Assembly: GCA_950097015.1 (NCBI GenBank)
Contig: CATNEN010000007.1
Coordinates: 7,192,001 to 7,256,000, forward strand
DNA: 64,000 nt
Origin: Macrostomum hystrix
Lineage: Eukaryota; Animalia; Platyhelminthes
Direction: 5' to 3'
This document shows, piece after piece, positions 32,273 to 49,560 of the stretch. The notes beneath the pieces are model-generated. The model was not told where the DNA came from and searched no databases. It saw only the letters and a list, made by a program, of their open reading frames with translations. Position numbers and translations under genes: made by a program. Each line of letters opens with the position of its first letter. Position 1 is the first letter of the stretch.

Positions 32273-32901
32273 TCTTTATGTGCCATAGACACCAAAAGAA
32301 CAGAAAAAGAACTGAACAGAAAAACGTGCTTAATCTACAGATATCGATAGCACATTTTTAGTCCGATCGTTTCAGGCCTGTGAACTGTTTGAATTGCGAT
32401 TTACCAGACAAACAGTGAGATAGGGTGCTCCTACTTTAAAAGTTTACTAGTTAATTTGATAGGTATTGAAGCTTAGAAGAGATTTAGAACAAAAGCGGAT
32501 TTAATTAGCAAGAGGAAAAAATACACAGAAACTCATTGCAGTGATTTTTTCTTTGAAGTGATCCTTGAACACAGAAAAGTTCTATCGATGCAGCAACTTT
32601 ATTTTATAAGATAGAAAATTATCATGACTAATTATGTAAACAAATACACAAAATATTATACTCGTTTCGATTTTGATTAGTACTTTGCTATAATTTGGAT
32701 TCATCTAGTTAAATAGCACTGTGTTAAAAATTGATCTAATTAAATAGAAGTATGCATCAAGAGCCATAATTCACTTATCGGATCGAATTTTGACTTTTAT
32801 TGTTGTAGCCTCTGTGTGTAACATCAAAATAGAGCAGAATATTCTTTGTACAAGATCTTACATCAACTACGGAAACACACTACTATACTATAAGTAGAAG
32901 G

Positions 32902-33348
32902 AGTAGTATGCAAGAGGGGGCTTCTAGGACAAAAATAATCGCAGCCTCCATTATCCACAAACCATTACTTTTATTATTCCCGAAGAGATCAGGAAAAAAA
33001 GGGTCCCCGCCTCTCTCTAAAAAACTCCGTCTCTATATTCTAAATTCTCTACTTTTAATATTCCACATCAGTTTGTGAGTTGAATATCTAGGACAAAAAT
33101 TATCGCAGCCTCCTTAATGCACAAACCATTACCTTTATTCTTCCCGAAGAACCCCCGCCAATAAAAAACCTGTCTCTACAGTTTGTGAGTTGCACATCTT
33201 GGACAAAAAAAATTATCGCAGCCACTCCCTAAGAGATCATGCACAAAATAGCGAAGCTGCAAAAAGCGTGCCAAGACAATCAAATTAGCACTAAAATCCC
33301 ATTCCCAAAACTCAAGACCCCAAACCTTGGGTGCTCATCCTCCGAAAA
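32902..33348 (+). repeat. Polinton left terminal inverted repeat (~447 bp)
   Basis: Reverse complement of 47900-48334 except for an internal divergent patch. Confidence 0.95.
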
Positions 33349-33504
33349 TGCTGATAACTTAAACTTGTAGTACTTCGACAGCAAGAAAGCGATCTACTCG
33401 CATTTTTTTTGGTTCAATGAAGTTCCCGATCGGAATTTCTGAGCAAGGCTGAGGTGGTTGGACAGATTTTTTAACTTCTTTTAGGAAGAGCACATGTAAT
33501 TCTT

Positions 33505-33631
33505 CCAATAGATTAAAAATATGCTTTGCGCAATTTATTATTGGCTGGTATTAAATTAAAAAATAGAGCTGATTATTGAGAGTGTGGGTTGTGTCCAATA
33601 AGGAAGTTCCCCCGATTAAGCTGCATATAAA
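33505..33631 (+). promoter_or_regulatory. Putative Pol II promoter of Polinton ORF1 (CCAAT boxes; TATAAA at 33626-33631)
   Basis: CCAAT/ATTGG near 33506, 33540 and 33595, and TATAAA ~60 bp upstream of ATG 33692. Confidence 0.5.
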
Positions 33632-33691
33632 TTGCTACCATCGAGTAGTTGTCATTCTATGCTTCGACAACAGTCTTCTTGAACGTAGAGA

Positions 33692-34456
33692 ATGGCATCC
33701 ACATCAAAAGCAAAGTCAGTGGCGCGAATCCAGGCATCTTTAGAGAAGGTGAAAAAAAAGAACCAAGCATCTCTTACGATGGCTCTTGCGGGCTTGGCCG
33801 AAATCGATCGAGAGCGTTTGCTACAAACGCTGCAACTTTTGGACAGCAGCACAGAAGAGAAGGAAAAAGACCCAACACCAAGGAAGAAGGAGGAAACAAG
33901 CGAATCCATCCGGTTTCTGACCAACCTCAAGGTGAAGTTGGAACAGTTCGAAGGCGAAAAAGTTGAAATCAAAACAAACTTTCGCAACTGTCGCGAGATT
34001 CTCACCCAACCCATTACTGAAAATACATCACCAACCGAGCTTCTTCGCCGCTTTCAAGAGCTAACGCAATTTATGGCGGATGTCGATGTACTTCGGACAA
34101 TGGCGATGTTCCGAAAAGCTGAAATCATCACTTGGATGTTGAGAAGCGAAAGTCGTGAATCCGTAATGGAAAAAACGAAGCTGACATCGGCCTACATAAG
34201 CAGACTTCGAATGTTCTACGAATTTGCGCTGCTGTACCCAGCGCTCGTCTACACCGGTTACTCGTTCGAGACGCTTCTGCATCACAAGAAGACAATCGAG
34301 CAGGAGGCGGACAACAATGAAAACTTCAGGTGTAAGATCATGATAAACCTGTCATCGGCCTTCGAGTATGAGAAGGATGACATGGAAGTCGAAGCAGATC
34401 CAGAGCTAGCGCTTACACCGCTGGCACAGGAAGTCCAGCAGAAGTTGAACTGCTAA
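33692..34456 (+). CDS. Polinton ORF1, unknown helical protein (possible HTH regulator), 254 aa
   Basis: Clean ATG-initiated ORF just inside the left TIR; a possible HTH-like segment RESVMEKTKLTSAYISRLRMF. Confidence 0.75.
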   Translation: MASTSKAKSVARIQASLEKVKKKNQASLTMALAGLAEIDRERLLQTLQLLDSSTEEKEKDPTPRKKEETSESIRFLTNLKVKLEQFEGEKVEIKTNFRNCREILTQPITENTSPTELLRRFQELTQFMADVDVLRTMAMFRKAEIITWMLRSESRESVMEKTKLTSAYISRLRMFYEFALLYPALVYTGYSFETLLHHKKTIEQEADNNENFRCKIMINLSSAFEYEKDDMEVEADPELALTPLAQEVQQKLNC

Positions 34457-34579
34457 TAAGAACTTTTGAAATGCCAGAATTTTTGAAGTGACAATTTTTG
34501 ATTTAAATTTTGGTAGAAGAATTTCCTCGAAAATTAAATGATGCGCTTCAAAACATACAAATAAAAAGTGTTCAAAACG

Positions 34580-35054
34580 ATTCAAATTTATTATTTGAAG
34601 ATTTGAATTTGTTCTTTGAAGATTCAAATTTATTATTTGACGATTTAGATTTCTTCCTTGAAGATTCAAAGATAATAAGCTACCTAATTATGCGTTTGAA
34701 GATTCAAAGATAATAAGCTACCTAATTATGCGTTTGAATATTCAAAGATAATAAGCTACCTAATTATGCGTTTGAATATTCAAAGATAATAAGCTACCTA
34801 ATTATGCGTTTGAAGATTCAAAGATAATGAGCTACCTAATTATGCGTTTGAAGATTCAAAGATAATAAGCTACCTAATTATGCGTTTGAAGATTCAAAGA
34901 TAATGAGCTACCTAATTATGCGTTTGAAGATTCAAAGATAATGAGCTACCTAATTATGCGTTTGAAGATTCAAAGATAATGAGCTACCTAATTATGCATT
35001 TGAAGATTCAAATTTGTTCTTTGAAGATTCAAATTTGTTCTTTGAAGATTCAAA
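34580..35054. repeat. Polinton internal array: 9 x 38-bp units flanked by 21-bp units, each with the palindrome TTTGAAnnTTCAAA
   Basis: GATAAT at 34671, 34709, ..., 34975 (period 38); lies between convergent ORFs. Confidence 0.93.
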
Positions 35055-35185
35055 TACGAGTATTCTTAAGCAACAAGAAAAATCGGATTCGAACCACAGG
35101 CTAAAAGTTTGCAACTGCATGCCAACCACACGCCATACCAAATATGCCAGCGAGCGATCTCTAGCCAGTTCGATGGAACTCCTAT

Positions 35186-35644
35186 TTAGCCTGCAAATGT
35201 GGGTTCTGCCTTCTCAACCCCCAGCTCTTTCAGCAGTCTTCCCAGTTCTTTATTTGGCGCATTCAATATAAAGCCAATTCCACCAAGCCCCAACCCCAAC
35301 TTTGTCTTACCAAAAATAACAGCTTTAACTAGTTTCCGAGCGATCGATTCCCTCCACCCGCTTGAAGCCCCCATATTGTCTAGCATTCTGAGCATTTCTT
35401 TGTCCCAGCGAGTCTTCTCCTCTGGAAAATCCCTATACTTAATATCATGCCACATGCAGACAGAGTCTAGCTCGTTCACAGGCTCATGCCCAGGATTTGG
35501 ATTATTGTTTTTATCTAGCTGTATTTCAAGCGGATTCAAAGGCCCGCAATATTTGTAGCCGGGAATTGTCCAGCCTTTGTTTGGATGAGGAAGCTTTTCT
35601 ACCAGTCCATGTGAGTCTAAGTTTCCACCAAAGCGTTGCATCAT
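35186..35644 (-). CDS. Parvovirus VP1u-type phospholipase A2, 152 aa
   Basis: PGYKYCGP Ca-binding loop, PVNELD, and catalytic HDIKY (HDxxY). Confidence 0.9.
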   Translation of the reverse strand: MMQRFGGNLDSHGLVEKLPHPNKGWTIPGYKYCGPLNPLEIQLDKNNNPNPGHEPVNELDSVCMWHDIKYRDFPEEKTRWDKEMLRMLDNMGASSGWRESIARKLVKAVIFGKTKLGLGLGGIGFILNAPNKELGRLLKELGVEKAEPTFAG

Positions 35645-35670
35645 TTTTATAAAAAATTAAATAAAAAATA

Positions 35671-36660
35671 ATGGCAGATCAGAAACTTCAAAAGCTCTAC
35701 TACAGTGACAAAGGATTCTTTGTAGGAAAAAATGCTGTCACCAAACTCGCAGAACTAAGTAATGAATCAAAACAAACAGTTGAAAGATGGCTCTCTAAGC
35801 AAGCAGTTTACCAAGTCTATTTCCCACCTGTTAAATTTACAAGACCTCACTTTAACATCTATAAACCTAATGAAGCGCACCAAGCAGATCTTCTGTTTCT
35901 CCCCAATGACTCAGGCTACAAGTATGCGCTCACTGTTATAGACATTGCCTCCAGATATAAAGAAGCCAGACCGCTTAAGACTAAGAAGTCAGAAGCAGTT
36001 GCAGCTGCCCTCCAAGACATTTACAAAAACTCACCGCTCACACACCCGCAAACCTTTATGACTGATCCCGGCAAAGAATTCATGGGGGCAGTCAAATCCC
36101 TTATGGAAAAGAACAATACGAAAATGCGCTACGGAAGAACTGAGCTCCATAGAGACCAGGCTTTTGTTGAAAGATTCAATCTAACTCTAGCAAAGAGACT
36201 TTTCACAAAGCAGACAGCTGAAGAGCTGAAACTAAAAAGTGGCCAATACTATACCAAGTGGACAGAAAGACTCCCCGCAGTAATAAGTCAGCTGAACAAT
36301 GAAGTATCTCGAATGACAAACCTGAAACCAAATACTGCCATCAAACAAGACACAGTTGAATCAAAACATCCAATCGCCCAATTCCCAATTCCAAAGCTCC
36401 CTGGCGTTTATTCTCCGGAAATTCTTACTAACTCTGAATTCGTTCGCTTCCTTTACTTACCAGGAGAGCTGGAGAAGGACACAAAGAGAAGAGCAACAGA
36501 CCCATACTTTAGTCTTGATGTACATAAGATAAACAGGCATTTCACATCAGCATCCGGTGATTACTATTTTCTATCCCAAGACTTTAATTCAAAAGCCCCC
36601 ACACGATCATTCACAAGGGCTGAGCTTCTAGTGATTCCACATGACACAGAAATAAATTAA
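35671..36660 (+). CDS. Retroviral-type (rve) DDE integrase, 329 aa
   Basis: HQADL, TDPGKEF and VERFNLT provide the D-D-E triad; fits the 6-bp TSD. Confidence 0.95.
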   Translation: MADQKLQKLYYSDKGFFVGKNAVTKLAELSNESKQTVERWLSKQAVYQVYFPPVKFTRPHFNIYKPNEAHQADLLFLPNDSGYKYALTVIDIASRYKEARPLKTKKSEAVAAALQDIYKNSPLTHPQTFMTDPGKEFMGAVKSLMEKNNTKMRYGRTELHRDQAFVERFNLTLAKRLFTKQTAEELKLKSGQYYTKWTERLPAVISQLNNEVSRMTNLKPNTAIKQDTVESKHPIAQFPIPKLPGVYSPEILTNSEFVRFLYLPGELEKDTKRRATDPYFSLDVHKINRHFTSASGDYYFLSQDFNSKAPTRSFTRAELLVIPHDTEIN

Positions 36661-36677
36661 ATTTTTTTTAAAATAAA

Positions 36678-37109
36678 ATGATTGAAACCAGAACCGTGAA
36701 TAAAATCAGCCGAATTATCGACTCTAAGAAGCCAGGAGTTGTATCAATTAAAGGTGTCAAAGTCAAAGTAGATCCAATCCAGCAAATGATCCATTGTAAC
36801 AATCAAACGCACAATATCACTGATGAGAAGACAGGCGGGATTCTTCCTTTGCTAACTCTTATCCCCATCATCGCAGGTGCTCTTGGTGCTGCAGGAGGTG
36901 TAGCCGGCGGAGTTGCATCAGCTGTGAAGGCTGGCAATGACAGAGCACACCAACAAGAGATGGAGAAAATCGCTAGAGAAAAAGGAGTCAGAATCGGAAT
37001 GGGTAGTTGTGAATCTGATGAATCAGCTGATGAATCAGTCAGCAAATCAGAAATCGTTAAAGCCATCATGACACTGCATAAAGCAGGATTTACAATACTC
37101 CGGATGTGA
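36678..37109 (+). CDS. Adenovirus pX-like virion/core protein, 143 aa
   Basis: TGG|ILPLLTLIPIIAGALGAAGGVAGGVASAV resembles the hydrophobic C-terminal segment of adenovirus pX (GGILPLLIPLIAAAIGA...). Confidence 0.7.
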   Translation: MIETRTVNKISRIIDSKKPGVVSIKGVKVKVDPIQQMIHCNNQTHNITDEKTGGILPLLTLIPIIAGALGAAGGVAGGVASAVKAGNDRAHQQEMEKIAREKGVRIGMGSCESDESADESVSKSEIVKAIMTLHKAGFTILRM

Positions 37110-37233
37110 AAACAGAACAGAACAGAATCTGCTCTCATAACTATATTTAGCACTGTTGGTAGTAGTTTGCCATACTTTACACTTCACTTGAGGGTGACCA
37201 CCCTAAATTTTTTTTATAAAATTTTCATTAAAA

Positions 37234-40200
37234 ATGCCTAAAGCAATTCCAGAAAAAAAATTTGTCGAATCTTTCTTTCAAAATTATTGTCCTCAAGCCT
37301 CATTCTTTTCAGCAGAAAAGTAAAGTTTTGCAAGAGCTTTGCAGGCAGAAATTCAATACAGATCCAGGCTACCTCGGGAGCTATGCAAAGATGCAAGAAA
37401 TTATTAATCAGCTTCTGCATTCAGAGCAGTACACACCCGTGATGAACCCTGCAGCTGAGCATCAACAAAAGAGCCGCAGCTTAGTCAATAAGTATGAGAC
37501 ACTCACAGGTCAAAATGTGTTGAAATACCCACAGAATAAGCAAGAGCAAGAAGATCTAGAACGTACAATCCACCAGGTTGAAGCAGAGCTACAAGTAGAG
37601 CTACAAACTGAAGACCTTAAATTTGCACAGAGAAAATTCACAGAGTATTATATTGAGTACACAATCCAGGAAGACACCACAAATTCCCAATCCGACATTT
37701 ACGACTTCAAAGACAGAATTCAATCAGTAATTGATCACACACTGAAGTCACGTAAGACCTTCAAGCTTCAGTTATCATTCAAGATTGAATTTTACATGCC
37801 TGCAAAACCCACTGAGCGTCTTGAATACTACATGACTACTAAAGCTCTACCCTTTACTCCCACTGACACACAGGATCCCTTTCTTCAAGAGATCAGTAAA
37901 AAGATTGACGCCTTTACTTCCAGAGGATCAGGTTGGGTTGTCAATGGCATTCAAAAAGCTACAGTAATGATCATTAAATATGACCCTCTCAAAGCTTCAT
38001 CATATATTGTGCTCCCGAAAAAGTTAGCGGATAAAAAAGCTTGCATCAATGTGCAAAATGATGACCAATGCTGCGCACTATGGGCCGTTCTGTCTGCAAT
38101 ATTGTATGACAAGGATCGAGCCCACCCAGAGAGAACTTCTCATTATAAAATGTATTTTGACGCAAAACTTTTAGAATGCCATGCTAAAGGAATTTCCTTC
38201 AATAGAGGTGGCTTGGCAATCGATCAAATCCCAAAGCTAGAGGAAGTATTTAACAATAAAATCAGAATCACAGTCTTTGAATGGAATGAGAAGAGCGAAA
38301 AAGTACAGTTAGTCAGAGCCAGTAAAAACACGCTAGATCCTGAAGGTAGGCGTCGCATAGATGTCGATCTTCTAATCATAGGTGATTTGCGAGAAAATGC
38401 CCACTACGTTTGGATTAAAGATCTTTCCAGGCTCCTCCACAAGCAAATGAACAATCATCATGAATCGGTAGCAATCTGCCGTCTTTGTCTGAAGCATTAT
38501 AGTGGACCCGATCGTGATGAAAAACTTAAAGAGCATGAACTGACCTGTGAAGATCATCCAACCAACTGCACACTTCCAACGGATAAGCATCTCAGATTTA
38601 AGAGTTATCACAAGATGGAGAAGCTCCCGTTTATAGTGTATGCCGACTTCGAATGTACTATAAACCCTGAAACCAATAAGCATGTCCCAAATTCTGTTGC
38701 ATATCTCTTTATTGGAAGAGACTCTTTTATTGACTCAAAGTATTTCTTAGGTGACCAGTGTGTTGAACAATTCATTTACTCGATGATGGAATTACAGAAA
38801 AATGTTGCTGCCATTCAGCCTGTTCGAATAATTATGTCCGATCAAGATGAAATCGACTTCGGATCTGCAACTCATTGTCACATTTGCCGAAAGCTATTAA
38901 CACCCTGCGACGTCAAAAACCACACAGTCAGAGACCACGATCACTTCACAGGAAAATTTAGAGGGGCAGCTCATAACACCTGTAATCTGAAACTTCAGAA
39001 AAACATCCGCGACCTTACCATTTTCTTCCATAACGGAAGGGGATATGATTATCACTTATTGGTTGAGAAGCTGGGTATGATACCAGGCATTAAACTAGAT
39101 TGCATCGCAGAGAACAAAGAAAAGTTCAAGTGCATTGATATTAAGCGAGATTCAGGCAAGATTAAGATCAAAGATTCATTCCAGTTTCTGGCCGCCAGTC
39201 TCGACGCTTTGAGTAAAAATCTCACCGATGACCAATGCACTTACACCAAGATGCTGGCAGATTCCCCAGATTCATTTAAGCTTCTTAGAAAGAAAGGCGT
39301 CTACCCTTATGAATGTAATCACGTCTTTGCAGAACCACTACCACCCAAGGACAAGTTCTTTTCAAAGCTAACAAACTCTGGGATTTCTGATGAAGATTAT
39401 GAGCATGCTCAGACTGTTTACAAACATTTTAACTGTCGAAACTTTCTTGATTATCACATGCTTTACCTTTGGACTGATGTCTTTCTTCTAGCTGATGTAT
39501 TTGAAACCTTTAGAAAGACCTGGTACTCTGCTTATGGTCTTGACCCTGCTCATTATGTGTCTTTGCCTGCTACCAGTTGGGAATCATTGCTTAAAATGAA
39601 ATGGGATCAAAATCCCAACTGGTACATCGAGCTGCTTACAGACATAGACATGTACAACTTTATAGATTCATCTAAGAGAGGGGGCATCTCAATTTGTGTC
39701 CATAGGCATGCAAAGGCGAACAATCCGTATCTAGAAGACTATGATAAAGAAAAGCCTTCAAACTACATCCTTTACCTGGATGCCAACAACCTCTATGGTT
39801 GGGCTATGAGCCAAGATTTACCTGTTAGAGATTTTAGGTGGCTAGATACTTATAAACTCGACTTTTCAATACCTGCGATCTATGAAGTTGATGTTGAAAT
39901 CCTAAGGGAACTTCACGACGATTTCTCTGACTTTGCCCCCTTCCCTGAGAACATTAACTGTCCAAAGATAATCCAGTACAATGATGGAAGCTGGCAGCTA
40001 TCTGAAAAAGAAAAAGAGCGTGTGAAAAAGTTAACACAAAATCTCATGAACAAGACACGCTACATCATTCATTACAAACTGTTGCAGTATTTTATCTCCC
40101 TAGGCTGTAGGGTCACGAATGTTCACAGGGCTCTCGCATTCACAGAAGAAGCGTGGATGAAGCCATACATAGAAAAAAACACCCAGTTTAGAACTAAAGC

Positions 40201-41026
40201 AACAAACAGCTTTGACAAGGACCTGTTCAAGCTTGCAAACAACTCTGTCTATGGCAAGACCCTAGAAAACGAACGCAACCGCACGAACCTGAAGCTCGTT
40301 ACCTGTTATGAGCCTGGTACTATTCAGACAAGTTTATCAAAGCCCACTTTCAAAGAGCTTCATATCTTTAATGATTACTTGGGTGCCATACTGTTCTATA
40401 AGACTAAAGTTACCCTATGCAAGCCGATATTCACAGGTGTGACTGTACTCGATGAGTCGAAGCGTCTGATGTATAAATTCTTCTATGACATGAAGCGGCA
40501 ATATGGTGAACAACTGAAACTTCTATATACTGACACAGACTCCCTAATTCTAAACATACAGACTGAGGATGTCTATCAGGACATGTTGAATCAAAAACAT
40601 CTGTATGACCTATCCGAATATCCAGAGTCCTTCAAGACTTTGAAAGGTGATCAAGTACGCGACACTAGAAATCAAAAAGTTGTAGGAAAAATGAAGGATG
40701 AAACGGCTGGCACCCTCATTACAGAGTTTATCGGTTTGAGGGCAAAGTCCTATTTTGTAAAAAGTTGCAAGTCTACCATTAAAAAATCAAAAGGAATCCC
40801 AAAACATGTTGTTAAAAACGATCTCCATGAAGCTTCATACAAGGACGCATTGATCAATAATAAAAGTACTACTCATGAATTTATGAAACTGCAGTCTAAG
40901 AACCACAACATTCACACAATTCAACAGAAGAAGATAGGCCTCTCAGGTGCCGATAACAAACGACATATCTTTGATGACAACATTAACAGCCTACCATTTG
41001 GACACTATAGATTAAATAATTTGTAA
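37234..41026 (+). CDS. Protein-primed family B DNA polymerase (pPolB); likely start ATG 37234 is out of frame across an A8 run; continuous ORF 37262-41026
   Basis: ExoI YADFE, ExoII FHNGRGYD, PolA LDANNLYGWAM, PolB KLANNSVYGK, PolC YTDTDS; inserted EndoVII-like CHIC...RDHDHFTGKFRGAAHNTCN. Confidence 0.95.
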
Positions 41027-41057
41027 CAAAATTTGTTACAAAAATTTGTAAAAAAAA

Positions 41058-41456
41058 ATGACAACTAATATTTATTTAGAAGAGCTAGCTCAGCAATTAA
41101 AAATCCCAAACTTCAGAGGCGTCTTTATGAAGGATACACTGCCAGAAACCCCACTAGAAAAAGAATGTGGAATCATGAACTTTGACCCTGCAGAAAAGCC
41201 AGGTTCTCATTGGGTTTGTTGGGTAATTGATCCGAACCGTAAACACAAGTACTATTACTTTGATAGCTATGGAACTGCTGTACCTGAACAACTGAGAAAT
41301 TATATGACTCATATGAGACATAAAATATACCGCTCAGATTTTATACTCCAGGGTATTAACAGTGATATTTGTGGTGAGCTATGTATGACTGTTTTGTATG
41401 CAATGACCCACACCCGAAAAAGTTACAAAGAAATCATTTTAGGGCTGAAAAAATAA
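41058..41456 (+). CDS. Adenain-like cysteine (maturation) protease, 132 aa
   Basis: GSHWVC, YFDSYG and QGINSDICG give the His-Asp-Gln-Cys arrangement of adenoviral/Polinton proteases. Confidence 0.92.
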   Translation: MTTNIYLEELAQQLKIPNFRGVFMKDTLPETPLEKECGIMNFDPAEKPGSHWVCWVIDPNRKHKYYYFDSYGTAVPEQLRNYMTHMRHKIYRSDFILQGINSDICGELCMTVLYAMTHTRKSYKEIILGLKK

Positions 41457-41481
41457 TTTTTTTAGGTCCCGTTAGGTCCTG

Positions 41482-42105
41482 TTAGGTCTTGTTCATTTTC
41501 GCTGCTTTCGCCACATGCTGTTTGAACACATTCTCCAGATCATTTCTTAGCTGGCTCATTTCATCAATGGTATTTAGATTAAGCCTAACTCGTTGCTCAT
41601 AGAGGTCTTGAATGTTTTTAAACTCATCCTCTGAAATGAACTTGTCTTCAATCGCCTTTGAGATGTACCCGATGATAGAGCTTTGTACTGATTTCTCATT
41701 TGTTTGCTTCGCATGTAGATGCTTTAGCTTTTGTCGTCTGTTCCGTGATAGTGCTCCTGTAACTGCTGAAATCAGACCACATGTGGCACCAGCAGCTCCG
41801 AGTGGAATGGCGATTGGCACAGTGATTACTGGAATTGTTGAAACAGCAGCTGCTGATCCCGATAGAACAGATGCAGATCCAAGAAACATATTAAGGTAAT
41901 CGATGACCTTGCACTCTCTATTATAGCGCTTCAGTTTCTTGGTATTATGATCAATTTGCCGTTTAATATCATCTCGCATCTTTTGAATCTCCACCAATCT
42001 GAATTGCTGCGAGTTACAAGTGAAAGTTGGGTAAAGGGGTTGTTGTGGGCTTGGGTTGTTTGGAGGCGCACTAGGTTCATATAGTGAGTTTATTTTTTCA
42101 GACAT
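41482..42105 (-). CDS. Polinton membrane-hairpin protein with N-terminal PSAP motif, 207 aa
   Basis: Coiled coil, then two adjacent hydrophobic helices, then a basic segment and DKFISEDEF. Confidence 0.8.
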   Translation of the reverse strand: MSEKINSLYEPSAPPNNPSPQQPLYPTFTCNSQQFRLVEIQKMRDDIKRQIDHNTKKLKRYNRECKVIDYLNMFLGSASVLSGSAAAVSTIPVITVPIAIPLGAAGATCGLISAVTGALSRNRRQKLKHLHAKQTNEKSVQSSIIGYISKAIEDKFISEDEFKNIQDLYEQRVRLNLNTIDEMSQLRNDLENVFKQHVAKAAKMNKT

Positions 42106-42136
42106 TTATTGAACGAAAAAAAATTATATAAATTTT

Positions 42137-42865
42137 TTATGACCTTTCTCGCAAATCTGTTGCACGCCTTGCCGCCTCCCTTGATGCCTCTTCTGATGGT
42201 CCATCAGATACTCTTGCTTCTTCAATGTCAATGTCTGGCAGATTGTGCAGTCTCTCTAGTCGGCCGAGTCTTCTTTTCGTTTTCCCCCAGTCGTTGTATA
42301 TCCTATTCAAATACTCAGTGTGTCTTGTTACGTTTAGCCCCATGGTTCTTAGTGTTTCCTTTGTTTCATTTGCTAGTCTCTGAAGAGTTGTTATATCTGA
42401 CTCTGCTGCTGTGAGTCGCGAACTCAATCTATCATGCACAGTGCTTGATCTTAGCATAAAGGCTTCTAAATTTCGAACTTTATTTGAATTTTCTGCTACT
42501 CTTTCTTCCACCAAGTTTGCTCGATTATTAATGGCAGTTCTCAGAGTGACGATGTCTGATCTCAGAGTGGCGATGTCTGATCTCAGAGTGGGTATCGCTG
42601 CAACAAGAGTATCCCGATCATGAACAAACTGTACATATAGTATGTCAATCTCTTCCTTCCGCTTTGCTACGCTCAACCGCAGGTCTTCCATGTTTATTTG
42701 TTGTTGGTGTGTTGCCCGCTCTAGGGCTTTCAAGCGATCTTTATTGAGTTTGATTTCTGGAATTTTTTCGTCAACATTTATATAACGCCTGTCAAGGTAA
42801 GAAACTTGAGCACTAGTGAGTGTGCTTCCGCGATCCAACGATTCACCTGCAAAATTAATAGACAT
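42137..42865 (-). CDS. Polinton coiled-coil protein (possible fibre), 242 aa
   Basis: Extended heptad pattern including the tandem TLRSDIA/TLRSDIV 21-bp duplication. Confidence 0.75.
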   Translation of the reverse strand: MSINFAGESLDRGSTLTSAQVSYLDRRYINVDEKIPEIKLNKDRLKALERATHQQQINMEDLRLSVAKRKEEIDILYVQFVHDRDTLVAAIPTLRSDIATLRSDIVTLRTAINNRANLVEERVAENSNKVRNLEAFMLRSSTVHDRLSSRLTAAESDITTLQRLANETKETLRTMGLNVTRHTEYLNRIYNDWGKTKRRLGRLERLHNLPDIDIEEARVSDGPSEEASREAARRATDLRERS

Positions 42866-42892
42866 TTTTTTAATAACAAAATTTAAATTAAT

Positions 42893-43693
42893 TTAAATTA
42901 CAGTTCTTTTTTCTTTGTTGATCATCACAAACTGGTAAGGTTGATTCCACTTTTCATAGCAAAGATTAACGAATTCCTCCTGTGAAATCTTTCTGTTGGA
43001 GTTTTTTGTTGGATTTACAAAATTGGCAGGCGCAATGACCTCATTGTATAATCTTTTTAGCCTGTCCTGTGGAATTGTTGGAAACAGGAGGATCAGATTG
43101 CAGTTCCCACGAATTGTTTTGTTCGGGAGCTCGAACCAGTTCTGGGCAATGTAAATCACGTTACAATTGTTGTGCCGTCCTCTTGTAAAATAGTTTTCTA
43201 TCTGCTTCTGTGGGCCTGTCATGCAATCATCAAAGACAATCAAATGTTTTCTCCCCTTTTCTAGCTCATCTGGTTGGGGTAGAAGTTTGGTCTTAGGATC
43301 AACCTGCGGATCTCCGTATGTGAACACTTTAATGTTCTGCCATTTTTCATTGTCTTTGATGTACTTTGCATATTCGGCAGCTACAATTTCTGGGTTACTG
43401 GGAAGGCTCTTTTGGTTATTAAAACATTGAATAATGTGCTCTTTGTGCAGTCTGTTTTGCAGTCCAGAGATCAACATTTTATACTCATCTTGATACAGGG
43501 TGGGAGAGTAGATGTGCAGAGTGTCATAGTCGATAAAGCCAGGTCTAAGAAGCATGTTAAAGACTCTGAATGTTTTGCCTGAACCTGATGAACCAACAAC
43601 AATGCATCTGAAGTGACCCGGGATTGACTCATGATGAGAAAACTTAATCTGATTACGTGTCCAGTGAGGATTGAAGTCGTTTGAAAAGTCCAT
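42893..43693 (-). CDS. A32/FtsK-like DNA packaging ATPase, ~266 aa
   Basis: Walker A GSSGSGKT, Walker B LIVFDD, TRGRH and YIAQ motifs; ATG 43693 in A-rich context. Confidence 0.93.
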   Translation of the reverse strand: MDFSNDFNPHWTRNQIKFSHHESIPGHFRCIVVGSSGSGKTFRVFNMLLRPGFIDYDTLHIYSPTLYQDEYKMLISGLQNRLHKEHIIQCFNNQKSLPSNPEIVAAEYAKYIKDNEKWQNIKVFTYGDPQVDPKTKLLPQPDELEKGRKHLIVFDDCMTGPQKQIENYFTRGRHNNCNVIYIAQNWFELPNKTIRGNCNLILLFPTIPQDRLKRLYNEVIAPANFVNPTKNSNRKISQEEFVNLCYEKWNQPYQFVMINKEKRTVI

Positions 43694-43736
43694 TTTTCTA
43701 TGATGAAAAAAAATTAAAAAAGAGTAAATCATTTAT

Positions 43737-43832
43737 AAGATGTGTCTAGGACTTAGATGTGTCTAGGACTTAGATGTGTCTATTTGGGACTTAGATGTGT
43801 CTTTTTGGGACTTAGATGTGTCTATTTGGGAC
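43737..43832. repeat. Short 17/21-bp tandem repeats (GGACTTAGATGTGTCTA...) upstream of the ATPase
   Basis: Seen directly. Confidence 0.8.
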
Positions 43833-43876
43833 TAGTCTTGTACCCTTACATGTCTTGTACCCTCGAAAAGCACCCT

Positions 43877-44287
43877 TTAGTCAAATTTGAAACCACTTCC
43901 TTTTTTAATGCTAGCTATGCTAGCTCTCATCTTCTCGTAGATTGCAGGGTCCACACTGTCTGGATTCGGGGCCAGCGGAGCCAGCGGAGCCAGCGGAGCC
44001 AGCGGAGCCAATGGTGGCTGAATATCTTGTGTTACAGTATCCTTTATCTTTTTAGCCGCAGTGACAACGCTTCCCACAGATTCAGCCACGTTCTTAATAT
44101 TATCTTTGTTCTCACTAATGACTTTAAAGACCCGAGCACCCTGTGCAATTATATCAGCAAGACCATTCCCGGAGCGTTCTTTCCTCGGATAGTGGCCTGC
44201 CGGGAAAAGTCCGGATCCACGCTTAATTAGATTAAGTTCCTCCTTGTCATAGTATTTGTCCACGTCTTTTTCGAAAATAATCGGCAT
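43877..44287 (-). CDS. Putative protease-processed virion protein, 136 aa
   Basis: GxG sites (RGSG|L, SGNG|L, KGSG|F), amphipathic helix, (PLA)5 repeat. Confidence 0.75.
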   Translation of the reverse strand: MPIIFEKDVDKYYDKEELNLIKRGSGLFPAGHYPRKERSGNGLADIIAQGARVFKVISENKDNIKNVAESVGSVVTAAKKIKDTVTQDIQPPLAPLAPLAPLAPLAPNPDSVDPAIYEKMRASIASIKKGSGFKFD

Positions 44288-44304
44288 TTTTATTAGGGAA
44301 GAAA

Positions 44305-45492
44305 TTATTTTTTGTTAAAACGTGAAAGCAGAAGCTCTCTTGCCCGTTTGTCGATATACTTCTTTTCCATCATTTTGTCCAGGATGTTGACAAATTCTTT
44401 TCTATTTTCGTCTTTCATGCCAGTCTTTGCAGCTCCAAGAAGAACAGCCACTCGCTTATAGATGTCAGAAATTCCTGTTCCTTGAAATGATTGGTCAGTG
44501 GAGGACTGGTCGGTGGAGGACTGGGGTGAACTCTCAACTGCTCTTTGTTGTGGTGTGAACACTCTTGCTTTGATTTTATTCATTTGAGCTGGGGAGAAAT
44601 TTTCTAGTTGTTGCCAGGCATCTGGGTGATCATTTTTATATTTAGCTACTTGAGTCGGCTCTGCATTTTCAAGGGCACTGAGTATGTCTTCGGGTGTTGA
44701 TTCAGATGTTTGTTGCTGCTGTGGCGGTTGCTGCTGTGGCGGTTGCTGCTGGGGCGGTTGCTGCTGTGGCGGTTGCTGTTCTAGATATTTTATGGCATCT
44801 TCTTGATCTGGCAAACCAAACCATTGTTTAAAATGCTTGTACTTTTTGAATCTGGTCAGGATGACACCGTTGTCATGCATCATTTTCAGAACTTGTGGGA
44901 GCTTTAGTATTTCTATATCTCTAGCAAGAGCAAAACTCACTAGATCTCTATAGTTCTTTAGCTGCTTGTCCGAAATTTTCTCTTGGTTCTTAGTCATAAA
45001 ATTCAGTAAGGTTTCTGTGTAAATTATTCTCTTAGTTTCTGGGCCTTTGACAACAGAAATATGGTTCTTGTTTATGTCGATATAATATTCCACTGGTTCA
45101 TTATAAATGTTTTTTCTCCACATACTTATTCCGAATACATATTTCCCATCATGTTCTACACGTTCTACTGGTCCAAAAATGTTATCTGTCACTTTTAGTT
45201 GTGACTGTTGTGGGACTTGGACTTGCGGATCTGCAGATTGATGTATCTGCGGTGCTTCTGGAATTTTGTCCAAAGCCTTTTGCACCTGGGTTTCCTGTAT
45301 GTCGTCAATAGTTTCTTTGACTTGATCAATATTTTTCTTAGCTTCTCCATACCCGGGTTTATGAAACTCTGTGGCTGCTTGGACAAACTCATTGTAGGAT
45401 TGTTGCTCCTTATTGATTAGCCCGGTAACTCTCTTTTCTGCTTGTGCTAGCTTCTCCAATTCAGATATTTGGTGCGCATTTTTTCGCTTCAT
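44305..45492 (-). CDS. Polinton putative core protein, 395 aa
   Basis: (QQQPP)n linker; C-terminal QGTG|ISDIYKRVAVLLGAAKTG...EFVNILDKM helical domain of the type seen in Polinton core proteins. Confidence 0.75.
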   Translation of the reverse strand: MKRKNAHQISELEKLAQAEKRVTGLINKEQQSYNEFVQAATEFHKPGYGEAKKNIDQVKETIDDIQETQVQKALDKIPEAPQIHQSADPQVQVPQQSQLKVTDNIFGPVERVEHDGKYVFGISMWRKNIYNEPVEYYIDINKNHISVVKGPETKRIIYTETLLNFMTKNQEKISDKQLKNYRDLVSFALARDIEILKLPQVLKMMHDNGVILTRFKKYKHFKQWFGLPDQEDAIKYLEQQPPQQQPPQQQPPQQQPPQQQQTSESTPEDILSALENAEPTQVAKYKNDHPDAWQQLENFSPAQMNKIKARVFTPQQRAVESSPQSSTDQSSTDQSFQGTGISDIYKRVAVLLGAAKTGMKDENRKEFVNILDKMMEKKYIDKRARELLLSRFNKK

Positions 45493-45522
45493 TTCTTATT
45501 TTATTTTTTTTTAGTTTAAAAA

Positions 45523-46809
45523 ATGAACGACCCACTGACACCAGTTTTCTACAAAATTAACAAGCCTATTTTGAGTGATGATAGCACAATCAAAGCGACT
45601 CAAGTAAGAGTTCCCAGTCAGGAAAATCAGAATGAAACTAATCTTGGTCCTGGTCAAACACTGACATTCACCTACAATGGATGTTCGTCTCTGGTTAGTG
45701 TGCACAGTCTTAAGAGCGGCTTCCATATGACATTTCAATTCAAGACAAAGGGAGGTGCGGATGCAGCTCATGCTAACGTTGACAAGCATGATGCAGATGT
45801 GGCTCTGATCAGTAACTTTTGGGCGTACATGTTCAAGGAGTTTAGTGTATCGAATGGGAGCACAGAGTTGGAGCGAATCGCCAACTTTGGAGTTGTCTAT
45901 GACGCTCATTGTTTGATCGAGAATCCAGATTTTATTCAGTTGGGGAGTGGTGCAGGTTTCGTTGCAGATGAAAAAGAAGGAGATATCAATGACAGTGGCT
46001 ATAAAAAGAGGAAGAAGAGATACAACTATGCATTGCAAGGTGCTGATGATGCTGCTAAGAACCCGCTGTATCGGTCTGTTGATGTATTCATACCACTGAG
46101 ATTCATGAGTGGATTCTGCAATACATTTAATCGACTGACTAGTAACTTCAGCTACACCTTTAAGATGACTAGAGATGATCGCAATAGAGTGTTGTGGACT
46201 GGGGCGGACCACACTAGGATGGAGGTGAAGCTAACCGGAATCGAGTTGTATTTGGAAGTCATTGAGCCAAAGACCGCACTAAAAGCAGATTATCTCAAGG
46301 CAATAGAGAAGGACATTGATGTCGCCTACACGGCCTACATGTGTCGAGATGAGCGAAACGAAACCAGAACAAACATCTGCATTAAAGAGGGATCATGCAG
46401 CAATCCTAGGTATATTATTATTAACATGAGAAACCCAAATAACATTATACGCTACATGCATGGAGATGTGCGGTCCATTCAGCATGAAATCAGTGATAAT
46501 CTTTACCCCGCACTGCCACAAAATGGAAATTTCAGTCAGAACAAGATTAGCAAATTTTACAGCGAGTTGGTCGACTTGGCTGTGAAAGAGAACAATGGAA
46601 TTGCTATCACTGCTCTTCAATATGGAACTCTTTATCCGATGTTTGGCGCTGATGTGTCTGCCAGACAAATGCCTACTGACAACAGCCCTGTGAATATCGT
46701 GACTAACATTGAGAGGACTGCCGCAACTGCTGTTGACCTGTACATTATCTATGCGTTCGAGAGGAAGGTGAAGCTTAACATGATCAACAATTCATCCAGT
46801 AAAGTTTAA
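45523..46809 (+). CDS. Major capsid protein (double jelly-roll), 428 aa
   Basis: Size, beta-rich composition, VFIPLRFMSGF motif and position next to a penton-sized ORF inside a Polinton; fold inferred. Confidence 0.8.
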   Translation: MNDPLTPVFYKINKPILSDDSTIKATQVRVPSQENQNETNLGPGQTLTFTYNGCSSLVSVHSLKSGFHMTFQFKTKGGADAAHANVDKHDADVALISNFWAYMFKEFSVSNGSTELERIANFGVVYDAHCLIENPDFIQLGSGAGFVADEKEGDINDSGYKKRKKRYNYALQGADDAAKNPLYRSVDVFIPLRFMSGFCNTFNRLTSNFSYTFKMTRDDRNRVLWTGADHTRMEVKLTGIELYLEVIEPKTALKADYLKAIEKDIDVAYTAYMCRDERNETRTNICIKEGSCSNPRYIIINMRNPNNIIRYMHGDVRSIQHEISDNLYPALPQNGNFSQNKISKFYSELVDLAVKENNGIAITALQYGTLYPMFGADVSARQMPTDNSPVNIVTNIERTAATAVDLYIIYAFERKVKLNMINNSSSKV

Positions 46810-46833
46810 ATATTTTTTTTCGGGGCTAAAAAA

Positions 46834-47646
46834 ATGGAAGCGATTGCTGAAAGACTAAATAATATTATTTCTCACTCTAAGGAGAGCATTCCTATTACAA
46901 TAGCTGGGCGAATTAATGACGCAAACGGGATATTTGTTGAAAAATTAGAGCAGGCGATTCGTCTGGATCCAGGTGCTAATTACCATGTATATCTTAACGA
47001 CTTCACTGGTTGGTCAAACGTTCCCAATGTGACAGCAGCAAATAATAAGTTTCATTACAAATGGAAAGGTGTAGCAGCAGCAGAAACTGTGGTATTCCCT
47101 GTGAGCACGCAAAGTGTGGATACCTACAATTACTTTCTAGAAAGTGTTTTTACTAAAAGAGGCCATTTTGAGACACCCAATGCGAGTAAGCCAGAGCAGA
47201 AACTGTTCCCTGTCAAACTATCCTATGATCTCACTGTAATGAGAGTGGTCATGCAAGTTCACAAAGATGCTGAGGTTGAATTTAAAGATGACACATGGTA
47301 TAGGGAATTGGGATTCGAGAAGAAAGTTTATAAGGGGACCCTGCTAAGCGGTCTGTTCTTAGCACCTAATATCGCAGACATTGTAAAGGGTTTGAATATT
47401 CTAATCAGAAGTAATCTCAGTCTTGATTGGGTATTTAAGGGAAAGCGAACGAATATTTTGTACAACATCTCAAACTCTGTTCCTGGAGGACAGATGCTGG
47501 TAGAGAAACCAAATCCAGTGAAAAGAGTTGTGCTAAGTAATAAGGAGATTCACGAGATTGTGCTGCAGTTTGAGACGGAAGATGGTGTTGGCGTTGATTT
47601 CAACGGTGAAGAGTTTGTATTGACGTTGATCATTGAGAGAATGTAA
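46834..47646 (+). CDS. Minor capsid protein (penton, single jelly-roll), 270 aa
   Basis: LEQAIRLD...WSNVPNVTAANNKFHY N-terminus and GVDFNGEEFVLTLII C-terminus typical of Polinton pentons. Confidence 0.82.
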   Translation: MEAIAERLNNIISHSKESIPITIAGRINDANGIFVEKLEQAIRLDPGANYHVYLNDFTGWSNVPNVTAANNKFHYKWKGVAAAETVVFPVSTQSVDTYNYFLESVFTKRGHFETPNASKPEQKLFPVKLSYDLTVMRVVMQVHKDAEVEFKDDTWYRELGFEKKVYKGTLLSGLFLAPNIADIVKGLNILIRSNLSLDWVFKGKRTNILYNISNSVPGGQMLVEKPNPVKRVVLSNKEIHEIVLQFETEDGVGVDFNGEEFVLTLIIERM

Positions 47647-47878
47647 GCTGCTTAATGATTTCTGCAAAGTTATAGTAGCTGTCATAGTCCTTTATAATTG
47701 CTCCATACTTATGAAACCAGTGACTCTTGACTGCTAGATTAATATTAGGGACATTGATATCGACGTTGGGACAATATTTCTTCATGTACTCGCTGCATTC
47801 TCGTTTGCATTGGTACTTACTCTTGTAATTAGGCTCATGCCTTTTGTAATAAGATCCTGGAGAGACGATTGGGAGCAT
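47630..47878 (-). CDS. Small unknown Polinton ORF, 82 aa
   Basis: ATG 47878 preceded by TATTAAAA like other element genes; begins ~20 bp inside the right TIR boundary. Confidence 0.55.
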   Translation of the reverse strand: MLPIVSPGSYYKRHEPNYKSKYQCKRECSEYMKKYCPNVDINVPNINLAVKSHWFHKYGAIIKDYDSYYNFAEIIKQLTFSQ

Positions 47879-47899
47879 TTTTAATAAGAATTTAATTTT

Positions 47900-48334
47900 T
47901 TTTCGGAGGATGAGCACCCAAGGTTTGGGGTCTTGAGTTTTGGGAATGGGATTTTAGTGCTAATTTGATTGTCTTGGCACGCTTTTTGCAGCTTCGCTAT
48001 TTTGAGCATGATCTCTTAGGGAGTGGCTGCGATAATTTGTTTTGTCCAAGTTCAGAAACTGGAAAGTATTTTTTTTTGGCGGGGGAACCTTGTTCCTTCA
48101 GGAAAGGTAATGGTTTGTGCATTAAGGAGGCTGCGATAATTTTTGTCCTAGATATTCAACTTACAAACTGATGTGGGATATTAAAAGTAGAGAATTTAGA
48201 ATATGGAGACGGAGTTTTTAGAGGGGCGAGGACCCTTTTTTTCCTGATCTCTTCGGGAATAATAAAAGTAATGGTTTGTGGATAATGGAGGCTGCGATTA
48301 TTTTTGTCCTAGAAGCCCCCTCTTGCATACTACT
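47900..48334 (-). repeat. Polinton right terminal inverted repeat (~435 bp)
   Basis: Reverse complement of 32902-33348. Confidence 0.95.
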
Positions 48335-49014
48335 AGAAGGTAACGTGCATTGCCACTATTTTTCACGCTTTCATATCATAAAATAAATATACAAGTAATA
48401 AGTTTTGGGGAAACTGAGAAAGCACGACAACCCACAGGCTTCTAGATATTAGGAATCAAATCTAGGATCTAGAATTCTATGGCACAACCATTCTATGGCG
48501 AATGTCCGCTGACTGCGGCTGCTAGCGTGCGGAATGTGTGAGGCTGGCACAGAAAAATACGGACTCTGGCTGAAGAAAGCCATGCGGCAGGTGTGGAATA
48601 AAAGGAGAGACAGGTGTGGGGTAGAGCATGCGCAGAGCTAGCTAACGACGACATATTTTCATTTGAAAAATCTGCAACAGAGTTACAAATTGATTAAGTG
48701 CAGGACGGAGCAAAGAAAAGCGGACATGTAAGTCGCAGAGCGTTTGAATATTTGAACTAGAAGAGAAAATACAGAAGCACAACAACAGACAGACTTATAG
48801 GCTTCTGTGAATGGGACAGCGGAGACAAATAGCATTTGCTTGAGTGAGGGAGCGACTTTAGCCTAATAAATTAGGACTTAAGCCTGTTTGCAAAAAGCAT
48901 CTTGTATCATACCCGATAGATGTGAAACACTGAGTTTTGGATTCCAAAGATATTAGTTGCTAGTTGTTACCATGCAAACAAGCACGACCAGCTGGAATCA
49001 GTGCAACTGAGGCT

Positions 49015-49560
49015 TCATTTCCTGGGCGGCAGTCGGCGCACCTCCTCGGCCAGCCAGTCGATCCCAGCCTGCAGTCCCTCGCCTGAGATGGCATTGCTGG
49101 GCACAATGTTCCATGACTTGTTGCTGAGGCACTCCTTCAGGCCCAGCATCTGTGTGCACTTCACAGGCGACAGGGCGTCCTTGTGGTCCATCTTGTTGGC
49201 ATAGAACAGGAAGGGGATGCCGCGCGTCCTGATGGCATCGTGGGCCAGCAGTTGCTCGAGCTCATCCTTGGCCACCACGAAGCGCAACTTGTCGGAGCTG
49301 TCAATCACAAAGATGATGGCGTCGCAGTCGCGGTAGTAGTGCTCCCACATGTTTCGATAGCGGCCTTGGCCAGACATGTCAAAGCAAGTCATGCGCAGAT
49401 TCTTCATCTCCAAGCGTTCAACGTTGAAGCCCACTGTTGGCACAATGTTCTGCATGGTGGCGTTCGCCGGCTTCAGCTTGTTTATGATGGTGGTCTTGCC
49501 GCTGTTGTCCAGTCCAACCACCAGTACGTTGGCCTCTCGCTTACCCAGTGCGCTGCCCAT
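49015..49560 (-). CDS. ARL6: ADP-ribosylation factor-like protein 6 (BBS3), 181 aa, intronless CDS
   Basis: [24 protein letters not shown]6-type [25 protein letters not shown]. Confidence 0.92.

What the first reader, a model, noticed from the sequence alone, without database searches (positions are those of the whole stretch)
32902..48334. Apparently intact, recently integrated Polinton/adintovirus with a full virion module
Seen: perfect 6-bp TSD AGAAGG, AGTAGT termini, outer ~100 bp of the TIRs identical, and 13 densely packed intronless ORFs with no internal stops. Established: integrase + pPolB + A32 ATPase + adenain protease + double jelly-roll MCP + penton defines Polintons, and repeated AGT termini fit jump-back protein-primed initiation. 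Inference: this may be a replication- and virion-competent endogenous virus family, possibly undescribed in this host, carrying its own membrane-entry and egress genes.
Basis: partly seen in the sequence, partly recalled or inferred. Interest (0 to 1): 0.85.

Follow-up and report, generated by a model that had tools for sequence, protein, structure and literature searches.

The report
Young inserted virus with damaged polymerase
A 15-kb virus-like mobile element of a known kind (a Polinton) with capsid genes sits in this animal genome and is absent from the same spot in another sample; its family is likely still active, this copy's DNA polymerase gene looks damaged, and one of its genes is predicted to help particles bud out of cells.

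Summary
The anatomy is confirmed: a 15,433-bp element with a 6-bp target duplication, AGTAGT ends, 447/435-bp inverted repeats, integrase, protein-primed PolB, A32 ATPase, adenain protease, PLA2 and pX. A confident model shows a double jelly-roll capsid protein. The penton is likely but its fold is unproven, and a 14th gene was missed. It is a Polinton, most like Alpha adintoviruses (group 2). Public runs show an empty site, other insertion flanks and copies about 99.6% alike, so the family is young and mobile. 'Intact' is only partly right. PolB's likely start codon opens 29 codons out of register with the long frame, and the gene is 15 bases shorter than in most copies. The left arm (ORF1) is a rare variant in two of three runs of this family. 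The most interesting gene is 41482-42105, a SLATT-like two-helix membrane protein. Its relatives keep PSAP/PTAP (11 of 13) and YPxL-type (10 of 13) late-domain motifs, the layout of orbivirus NS3, which suggests ESCRT-driven budding. I found no paper proposing this. Virions, transcription and host identity were not shown. Verdict: new member of a known kind, moderate interest.

The parts
32896..32901 (.). Left target-site duplication AGAAGG
   Evidence: the empty site holds one copy (table 7, run X1)
32902..33348 (+). Left terminal inverted repeat, 447 bp; starts AGTAGT; three copies of an internal ~30-50-bp motif (32927, 33091, 33201)
33692..34456 (+). ORF1, 254 aa, accessory gene of unknown family; TATAAA at 33626; lacks the shared start context; GC3 0.56; lies in a left arm that is rare in runs X7 and X6
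34579..35055 (.). Spacer with a 38-bp minisatellite (9.3 copies) and 21-bp repeats between convergent ORF1 and PLA2
35186..35644 (-). Parvovirus-type phospholipase A2, 152 aa, stand-alone (not fused to pX); YxGP loop and HD motif present
   Evidence: PF08398 E 1.5e-14; motifs
35671..36660 (+). Retrovirus-like integrase, 329 aa, D73-D132-E167
   Evidence: PF00665 E 1.3e-9
36678..37109 (+). pX/mu-like core protein, 143 aa, with a hydrophobic segment
   Evidence: PF05829 E 1.3e-5, above cut-off
37234..37323 (+). Likely true 5' end of PolB: ATG in the element's standard context, 29 codons, out of register with the long frame
   Evidence: copies differ by small indels in this interval (table 4)
37391..41026 (+). 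[quoted passage not shown]
   Evidence: PF03175 E 4.2e-9 and PF02945 E 1.3e-5 on the middle piece; 39% identity to L001; motifs
41058..41456 (+). Adenain-type cysteine protease, 132 aa, H51-D69-C105
   Evidence: PF00770 E 5.3e-5, above cut-off
41482..42105 (-). SLATT-like two-helix membrane protein, 207 aa, with PSAP (11-14) and LYPxF (24-28) motifs; candidate egress protein
42137..42865 (-). Coiled-coil protein, 242 aa; possibly a fibre (inferred)
   Evidence: only generic coiled-coil hits
42893..43732 (-). A32-type packaging ATPase (likely start 43693, 266 aa); Walker A, Walker B and RGRH motifs
   Evidence: PF04665 E 4e-6, above cut-off
43877..44287 (-). 136-aa protein with several GxG motifs; placed like 'pm' of vertebrate Mavericks (synteny only)
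   Evidence: PMC8097293 section 7
44305..45492 (-). 395-aa protein; placed like 'pz' of vertebrate Mavericks (synteny only)
   Evidence: no family hit
45523..46809 (+). Double jelly-roll major capsid protein, 428 aa
   Evidence: AF2 pLDDT 94.7; Foldseek Sputnik MCP E 8.8e-18, TM 0.66; 99 of 108 aligned sequences hit PF21738
46834..47646 (+). Likely minor capsid protein (penton), 270 aa
   Evidence: next to MCP; 13 homologues; viral look-alikes, TM 0.78-0.79; self-assembly model 0.41 vs control 0.00; no Pfam or PDB hit
47630..47878 (-).
   Evidence: start context rank 4 of 570; codon score 0.143 vs 0.079-0.152 for five genes and -0.13 to 0.04 for six shadow frames; no Pfam hit
47900..48334 (-). 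Right terminal inverted repeat, 435 bp, ends ACTACT
48335..48340 (.). Right target-site duplication AGAAGG

Best explanation
This is one recent, polymorphic germline insertion of a young multi-copy Polinton family, most likely Alpha-adintovirus type, that carries a capsid gene set; this particular copy likely has a damaged polymerase gene and would rely on sister copies to replicate. Shown: boundaries, gene set, MCP fold, empty site, other flanks, near-identical copies, the two PolB anomalies. Inferred from established Polinton and adenovirus biology: a linear copy is excised or arrives in a particle. pPolB primes on its terminal protein at the AGT repeat and jumps back, then copies the genome. 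The integrase inserts it, leaving a 6-bp duplication. The A32 ATPase packs DNA into an MCP/penton shell, adenain matures the core proteins, and PLA2 (with pX) breaks the endosome on entry. More speculative: the SLATT-like protein sits in a membrane and recruits Tsg101/ALIX through PSAP and YPxL, so that particles leave by budding, as orbivirus NS3 does. The left arm with ORF1 was likely gained by recombination between subfamilies.
For: TSD, termini, TIRs. Pfam hits above cut-off for integrase, protease, ATPase, PLA2, pX and for PolB's middle piece; catalytic residues present. MCP model pLDDT 94.7, best matches virophage and NCLDV capsids. Penton candidate: model supports self-binding, score 0.41 vs best control 0.00, contacts agree 88% or more, pLDDT 79 or more; the mark was reached by 21 of 30 paired and 0 of 23 single-chain calibration proteins, and a pass may reflect likeness to solved pentons. 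Run X1 holds one contig running from 32901 straight into the right flank (matches 48341-48370), which is the empty site; junction contigs with loose flanks at 32902 number 2 in X1 and 5 in X6 (table 7). Eight listed X1 pieces differ at 32 of 7,845 bases (0.4%). In X7, core contigs have depth 1314 and 1379 against 69.6 for the junction contig (rough; depth is no copy number). 9 of 12 coding differences that I picked as majority-versus-window are synonymous. PolB anomalies. Late-domain motifs.
Against: The long PolB frame keeps every catalytic motif, and the window's 5' form is not unique: it makes up about 4 in 10 of the depth there in X7 and most of it in X6 (table 4), so it may be tolerated. 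X7 carries the same junction with 0 differences and may be the source material. The empty site rests on one contig in one run. The penton fold was not modelled or matched. Alpha placement rests on gene content, not on a tree. The SLATT match is below cut-off, and the published idea for SLATT in PLVs is entry, not exit (PMC12220804). The 13 motif-bearing relatives are kin, so their motifs are not 13 independent events.
Confidence: 0.75

Rival explanations
1. This copy is fully autonomous. The 29-codon reading is a regulatory upstream ORF (or is bypassed by leaky scanning or splicing), PolB starts at 37391, and the 15-base difference is a tolerated loop variant.
For: The 1211-aa frame holds all Exo and Pol motifs. 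The window-like 5' form is shared by other copies (table 4). The 15-base difference is in frame and in a region that is gapped against the distant relative L001 too.
Against: The PolB start at 37391 is the worst-ranked of all 13 annotated starts for the shared context, whereas 37234 ranks 7 of 570. By frame arithmetic, a common form in other copies would not be out of register (inferred). The longer form near 39263 holds all the depth in X1 and X6 and 94% in X7.
Confidence: 0.2
2. The family spreads only inside the nucleus, as a self-synthesising transposon. The capsid genes are recent baggage from a viral ancestor and no particles are made.
For: No particle or transcript evidence was obtained here. 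Vertebrate Maverick virions had not been observed (PMC8097293, abstract).
Against: MCP and the penton candidate stay open with homologues at 43-78% and 53-84% identity, which implies long selection on them. Spodoptera adintovirus DNA co-purified with nuclease-treated particles (unpublished result described in PMC8502044, discussion).
Confidence: 0.25
3. The SLATT-like protein is an entry pore or a lysis protein (viroporin), and the PSAP/YPxL motifs serve trafficking or turnover rather than budding.
For: SLATT_1 matches 12 of 13 family members weakly. Pore-based endosomal escape was proposed for PLV SLATT genes (PMC12220804, passage).
Against: That proposal leaned on the absence of lipases, but this element has a PLA2. 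Both motif types are kept with varying order and spacing in an N-terminus that is otherwise gappy, and 0 of 175 capsid-protein homologues have both.
Confidence: 0.4

Closest known systems
Alpha adintoviruses / group 2 Maverick-Polintons (PMC8502044; Spodoptera Sf Mavericks, PMC5803895)
   Same: INT, pPolB with an EndoVII hit, ATPase, adenain, MCP, PLA2, pX; SLATT is labelled on the Hydra and Stylophora Alpha-PolB maps (supplementary Fig. S2); phospholipase is common in group 2 (10.64898/2026.06.19.733378, passage).
   Different: PLA2 and pX are separate genes on opposite strands either side of the integrase, not a fused PLA2X. No chromodomain hit on the integrase. The closest MCP homologue found is 78% identical and unnamed.
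Vertebrate Mavericks (PMC8097293)
   Same: (AGT)2//(ACT)2 ends, 6-bp TSD, size within 12.7-24.6 kb, TIR near the 402-bp mean, intronless genes, atp-pm-pz order (by position only).
   Different: Different module layout: PolB and protease are on one strand, and MCP and penton are adjacent. It carries PLA2 and SLATT-like genes, which are not among the eight vertebrate core genes.
Orbivirus NS3 egress protein (PMC6949946)
   Same: N-terminal late-domain motifs, a helical stretch, basic clusters and two membrane helices in a protein of a non-enveloped virus.
   Different: No evidence of homology (Orbi_NS3 in 3 of 13 members, E 0.04-0.09, over the helices only). The second motif is YPxL-type rather than PPRY. 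No binding or budding data.
Coral polintoviruses (PMC11131425)
   Same: Multi-copy endogenous elements with the six core genes in an invertebrate genome.
   Different: There the hallmark genes were shown to be expressed; here expression was not shown.

Membership tests
Polinton/Maverick (Polintoviricetes) | Long TIRs with (AGT)2//(ACT)2 or (AG)3//(CT)3 ends | tested here: met
Polinton/Maverick (Polintoviricetes) | 6-bp target-site duplication | tested here: met
   (empty site with one copy)
Polinton/Maverick (Polintoviricetes) | Protein-primed family B polymerase | tested here: met
   PF03175 E 4.2e-9 on the middle piece; the whole protein gave no PF03175 hit; motifs
Polinton/Maverick (Polintoviricetes) | Retrovirus-like integrase with DDE triad | tested here: met
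Polinton/Maverick (Polintoviricetes) | A32 ATPase and adenain-type protease | tested here: met
Polinton/Maverick (Polintoviricetes) | Double jelly-roll major capsid protein | tested here: met
Polinton/Maverick (Polintoviricetes) | Single jelly-roll minor capsid protein (penton) | tested here: inconclusive
   no Pfam or PDB profile hit; unnamed viral look-alikes; self-assembly pass; fold not modelled
Alpha adintovirus / group 2 Maverick-Polinton | PLA2 gene in the virion module | tested here: met
Alpha adintovirus / group 2 Maverick-Polinton | PLA2 fused to a C-terminal pX domain (PLA2X) | tested here: not met
   two separate ORFs on opposite strands
Alpha adintovirus / group 2 Maverick-Polinton | Alpha-class PolB by phylogeny or strong bidnavirus hits | not testable with these tools
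   no named reference sequences available; the EndoVII insert is shared with the Alpha Sf Mavericks
Alpha adintovirus / group 2 Maverick-Polinton | N-terminal OTU domain in PolB | tested here: inconclusive
   Cys and His motifs at about 227 and 338 fit a recalled pattern; no profile hit
Alpha adintovirus / group 2 Maverick-Polinton | Animal host | tested here: met
   nanos zinc finger in the flank, PF05741 E 1.8e-25
Beta adintovirus virion module | GasderminX and cupiennin genes | tested here: inconclusive
   no gasdermin hit in 13 ORFs, but those genes were defined by HHpred, which I could not run
Replication- and virion-competent endogenous virus | Unbroken replication gene in this copy | tested here: not met
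   PolB 5' end out of register; 15 bases shorter than most copies
Replication- and virion-competent endogenous virus | Transcripts, linear episomes, particles | not testable with these tools
   only contigs were served
NS3-like ESCRT-recruiting egress protein | Late-domain motifs ahead of two membrane helices | tested here: met
   P[ST]AP in 11 of 13, hYPxh in 10 of 13; 51-52 uncharged residues in 12 of 13
NS3-like ESCRT-recruiting egress protein | Binding to Tsg101/ALIX and a role in budding | not testable with these tools
   bench test

The most novel reading that the evidence does not exclude
Animal Polintons leave cells without lysis. Their SLATT-like gene is an NS3-like bridge that recruits ESCRT through PSAP and YPxL late domains and wraps the capsid in host membrane, which would help explain why free Polinton virions are so rarely seen. 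This family is circulating now as an infectious virus, with damaged and recombinant copies like this one carried along by sister copies.
Probability: 0.25. Interest if true: 0.78.

Novelty: new member of a known kind. Interest (0 to 1): 0.38.

Why it matters
Polintons with full capsid gene sets are common and well described, so the element itself is not surprising. Two things have value. First, a polymorphic, roughly 99.6%-identical family shows current activity and gives a natural place to look for Polinton particles, a long-standing gap. Second, how a Polinton capsid would get out of a germline or somatic cell is unknown outside the fusogen-bearing nematode elements, and a conserved late-domain membrane protein is a concrete, cheap-to-test answer. 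The copy also warns that 'no internal stops' can hide a broken gene start.

Tried and rejected
Single-sequence AF2 of MCP failed (pLDDT 30.7); PDB sequence searches found nothing for MCP, PolB, the penton candidate or the SLATT-like family. No whole genome is held, so copies could not be counted in the assembly. Related loci: none for MCP, the SLATT-like gene, integrase or PolB in viral contigs, none for MCP in metagenomes, three short PolB contigs; gene order in relatives is therefore untested, and so is the assumption that the SLATT-like homologues lie in Polintons. No RNA holder was listed. Run X13 (organism C, RNA by guess only) holds 80-90% relatives over several genes; I do not count this as expression. 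Reads were laid only on 32300-43700, so MCP, penton and the right junction were not examined in runs. My first label 'Beta/pPolB2 polymerase' (from the missing PF03175 hit) was withdrawn. Weak Orbi_NS3, RTX, HBL and DUF677 hits are generic helix-hairpin matches. TIR divergence (about 4% plus gaps) was rejected as an age clock, because the left TIR's inner allele at 33034 is rare or absent in three runs (table 3). A -1 ribosomal frameshift at the A-run near the PolB start leads to the wrong frame. Host: a recalled resemblance to repeat-rich flatworm genomes is untested; two flanking host proteins are not in the collection. Polintons are on record in flatworms anyway (748 pPolB1 in 8 genomes, PMC10748475 supplement). 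Earlier findings of this scan: nothing.
Full report
Observation. The element runs from 32902 to 48334 (15,433 bp). AGAAGG lies directly outside both ends, and both ends read AGTAGT inward. The outer 105 bp of the inverted repeats are identical; the full repeats are 447 and 435 bp with 413 identities, 18 mismatches and 20 gap columns. The 13 ATG ORFs have no internal stop and cover 81% of the element. The host is an animal: a nanos zinc finger lies 11 kb away. No genome is held and the species was not identified.

Gene identities. Pfam gives, above cut-off, PLA2 (E 1.5e-14), integrase (1.3e-9), adenovirus pX (1.3e-5), adenain (5.3e-5) and A32 ATPase (4.8e-6). PolB as a whole hit only endonuclease VII, but its middle piece hits PF03175 at 4.2e-9 and it is 39% identical over 650 columns to L001. 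Catalytic motifs of integrase, protease, ATPase, PLA2, exonuclease and polymerase are present (motif names are recalled). For MCP, a profile search gave 481 relatives. I aligned 107 of the proteins held, mostly full-length, with the query; 99 of these 108 hit the double jelly-roll family PF21738. The model reached pLDDT 94.7, and its best matches are Sputnik, PBCV-1 and mavirus capsids (E 8.8e-18, TM 0.66).

Penton and a missed gene. The ORF after MCP has 13 homologues but no Pfam or PDB hit. A homologue's Atlas model matches unnamed viral clusters at TM 0.78-0.79. Three copies were modelled head to tail: score 0.41, best of 3 controls 0.00, contacts agreeing 88% or more, pLDDT 79 or more. The mark was reached by 21 of 30 paired and 0 of 23 single-chain calibration proteins, and the pass may come from likeness to solved pentons. 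Penton is likely, not shown. Ranking all 570 ATGs by A/T content upstream puts nine annotated starts in the top 16, and also 47878 (-), which opens an 82-aa ORF with gene-like codon use: a 14th gene.

A young, mobile family. Of 20 runs listed, 8 from 2 studies hold 72-90% of the sampled words. Four runs were laid on 32300-43700, all as contigs. X1 has one contig that follows the left flank to 32901 and continues with the right flank (matching 48341-48370): the empty site with a single AGAAGG. X7 has the filled junction with 0 differences and may be the source material. Contigs with loose flanks before 32902 number 2 in X1 and 5 in X6. The 8 X1 pieces listed (of 75 laid) differ from the window at 32 of 7,845 bases. 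In X7 the core contigs stand at depth 1314 and 1379 against 69.6 for the junction contig, about 19-fold; the tool warns that depth is no copy number. Of the 40 differences shown (815 were not), I took the 12 coding ones at which the majority of copies differs from the window; 9 are synonymous, where about a quarter would be under neutral decay (rule of thumb). This suggests they arose while the lineage was replicating.

This copy is not a clean exemplar. The ATG at 37234 has the shared start context (rank 7 of 570) and sits where PolB should begin, but it opens only 29 codons in another frame; the first in-frame ATG at 37391 ranks 544. Copies differ by small indels in this interval (table 4), and by frame arithmetic one common form would not be out of register (inference). 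Against this reading, the window-like form makes up about 4 in 10 of the depth in X7 and most in X6, so it is shared and may be tolerated or carried in trans. Near 39263 (codon 625, exonuclease domain) the window is 15 bases shorter than the form holding 13.9 of 13.9 depth in X1, 1314 of 1402 in X7 and 80.7 of 80.7 in X6. The left arm is also unusual. The ORF1 contig stands at 89.8 in X7 and 8.85 in X6, far below the core, though at 10.2 against 13-17 in X1. ORF1 lacks the shared start context and has the highest GC3. The left TIR's inner allele at 33034 is rare in the runs, so the TIR mismatch likely reflects recombination, not age.

The candidate egress gene. ORF 41482-42105 has 12 homologues at 30-58% identity. 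Twelve of 13 family members weakly match SLATT_1 (best E 3.7e-5, below cut-off), and 12 of 13 have a 51-52-residue uncharged stretch, enough for two membrane helices. In the gappy N-terminus, P[ST]AP occurs in 11 of 13 and a hydrophobic-YP-x-hydrophobic motif in 10 of 13, against 0.07 and 0.05 expected from shuffles. The YP pair is invariant in 13 of 13, and motif order flips in two members. None of 175 capsid-protein homologues has both motifs. Shuffles ignore kinship, so this shows conservation, not independent origin. In bluetongue virus NS3, PSAP binds TSG101 and is needed for budding, in a protein with two membrane helices (PMC6949946, passages); that YPxL binds ALIX is recalled. Homology to NS3 is not supported. 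A homologue's look-alikes are unnamed clusters from molluscs and viruses.

Comparison with what is known. Ends, TSD, size and TIR length match vertebrate Mavericks, of which 134 intact ones are described (PMC8097293, passages and section 7). PLA2 and pX characterise Alpha virion modules, where they are fused (PMC8502044, parts 1-4 of 6 read). SLATT is labelled on the Hydra and Stylophora maps of its supplementary Fig. S2; the sequence files of that archive were not readable, so I could not check whether that SLATT is this family or whether motifs were annotated there. EndoVII and PLA2 occur in Spodoptera Mavericks (PMC5803895, passages), and homing endonuclease inserts in pPolB are known (PMC11161782, passages; PMC10748475, sections 5 and 8). 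SLATT genes are widespread in PLVs, with endosomal escape proposed (PMC12220804, passages). Expressed multi-copy polintoviruses are described in corals (PMC11131425, abstract and section 8). I found no text linking Polintons to late domains or ESCRT. In one search the 20 listed of 38 papers had no occurrence of either term; one search gave 2 general reviews, seen as listings only; one search gave SLATT papers; term searches in three papers gave zero. Subscription journals and preprint supplements are outside the library.

Verdict. It is a genuine Polinton, a member of that class by every testable feature except the unproven penton fold, and it works like an Alpha adintovirus without meeting the fused-PLA2X feature. 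The family is young and polymorphic. This copy likely depends on sister copies for replication (confidence 0.75 for the whole reading). Novelty: new member of a known kind. Interest 0.38, carried by the evidence of current mobility and by the late-domain egress hypothesis (probability 0.25, interest 0.78 if true).

Noticed in passing
window 21107-21589 (-): Host nanos-type zinc-finger gene (PF05741 E 1.8e-25) about 11.3 kb left of the insertion; nanos is a germline gene (recalled), so the site may be open germline chromatin.
   Followed up: no
window 49015-49584 (-) and 56616-57227 (+): An apparently intronless Arf-family GTPase ORF 0.7 kb right of the element, and a UBX-domain ORF.
   Followed up: no
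window 35645-35670 and 45493-45522: Divergent gene pairs share only 26 and 30 bp of almost pure A/T, and nine annotated starts rank in the top 16 of 570 ATGs for an A/T-rich T-tract plus A-run context. How such genes are promoted is unexplained.
   Followed up: partly
window 33431-34044: Run X6, labelled as another organism (B) in the same study as X7, matches this rare left arm with 0 differences in 614 bases: close kin, a label difference or recent transfer.
   Followed up: no
window 41063-43700: In X6 the long contigs right of PolB have depth 22-30 against 54-90 over PLA2 to PolB, hinting at copies with a deleted or exchanged virion-side module.
   Followed up: no
window 32927, 33091, 33201 and mirror sites in the right TIR: Three copies of a GGACAAAA...TATCGCAGCC motif per TIR; candidate origin-binding sites. 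Copies in runs skip or repeat units here (table 5).
   Followed up: partly
whole window outside the element: Very dense minisatellites with periods of 12-34 bp, many about 1 kb long.
   Followed up: no
L001: A GC-rich metagenome contig with a PolB 39% identical to this one.
   Followed up: partly
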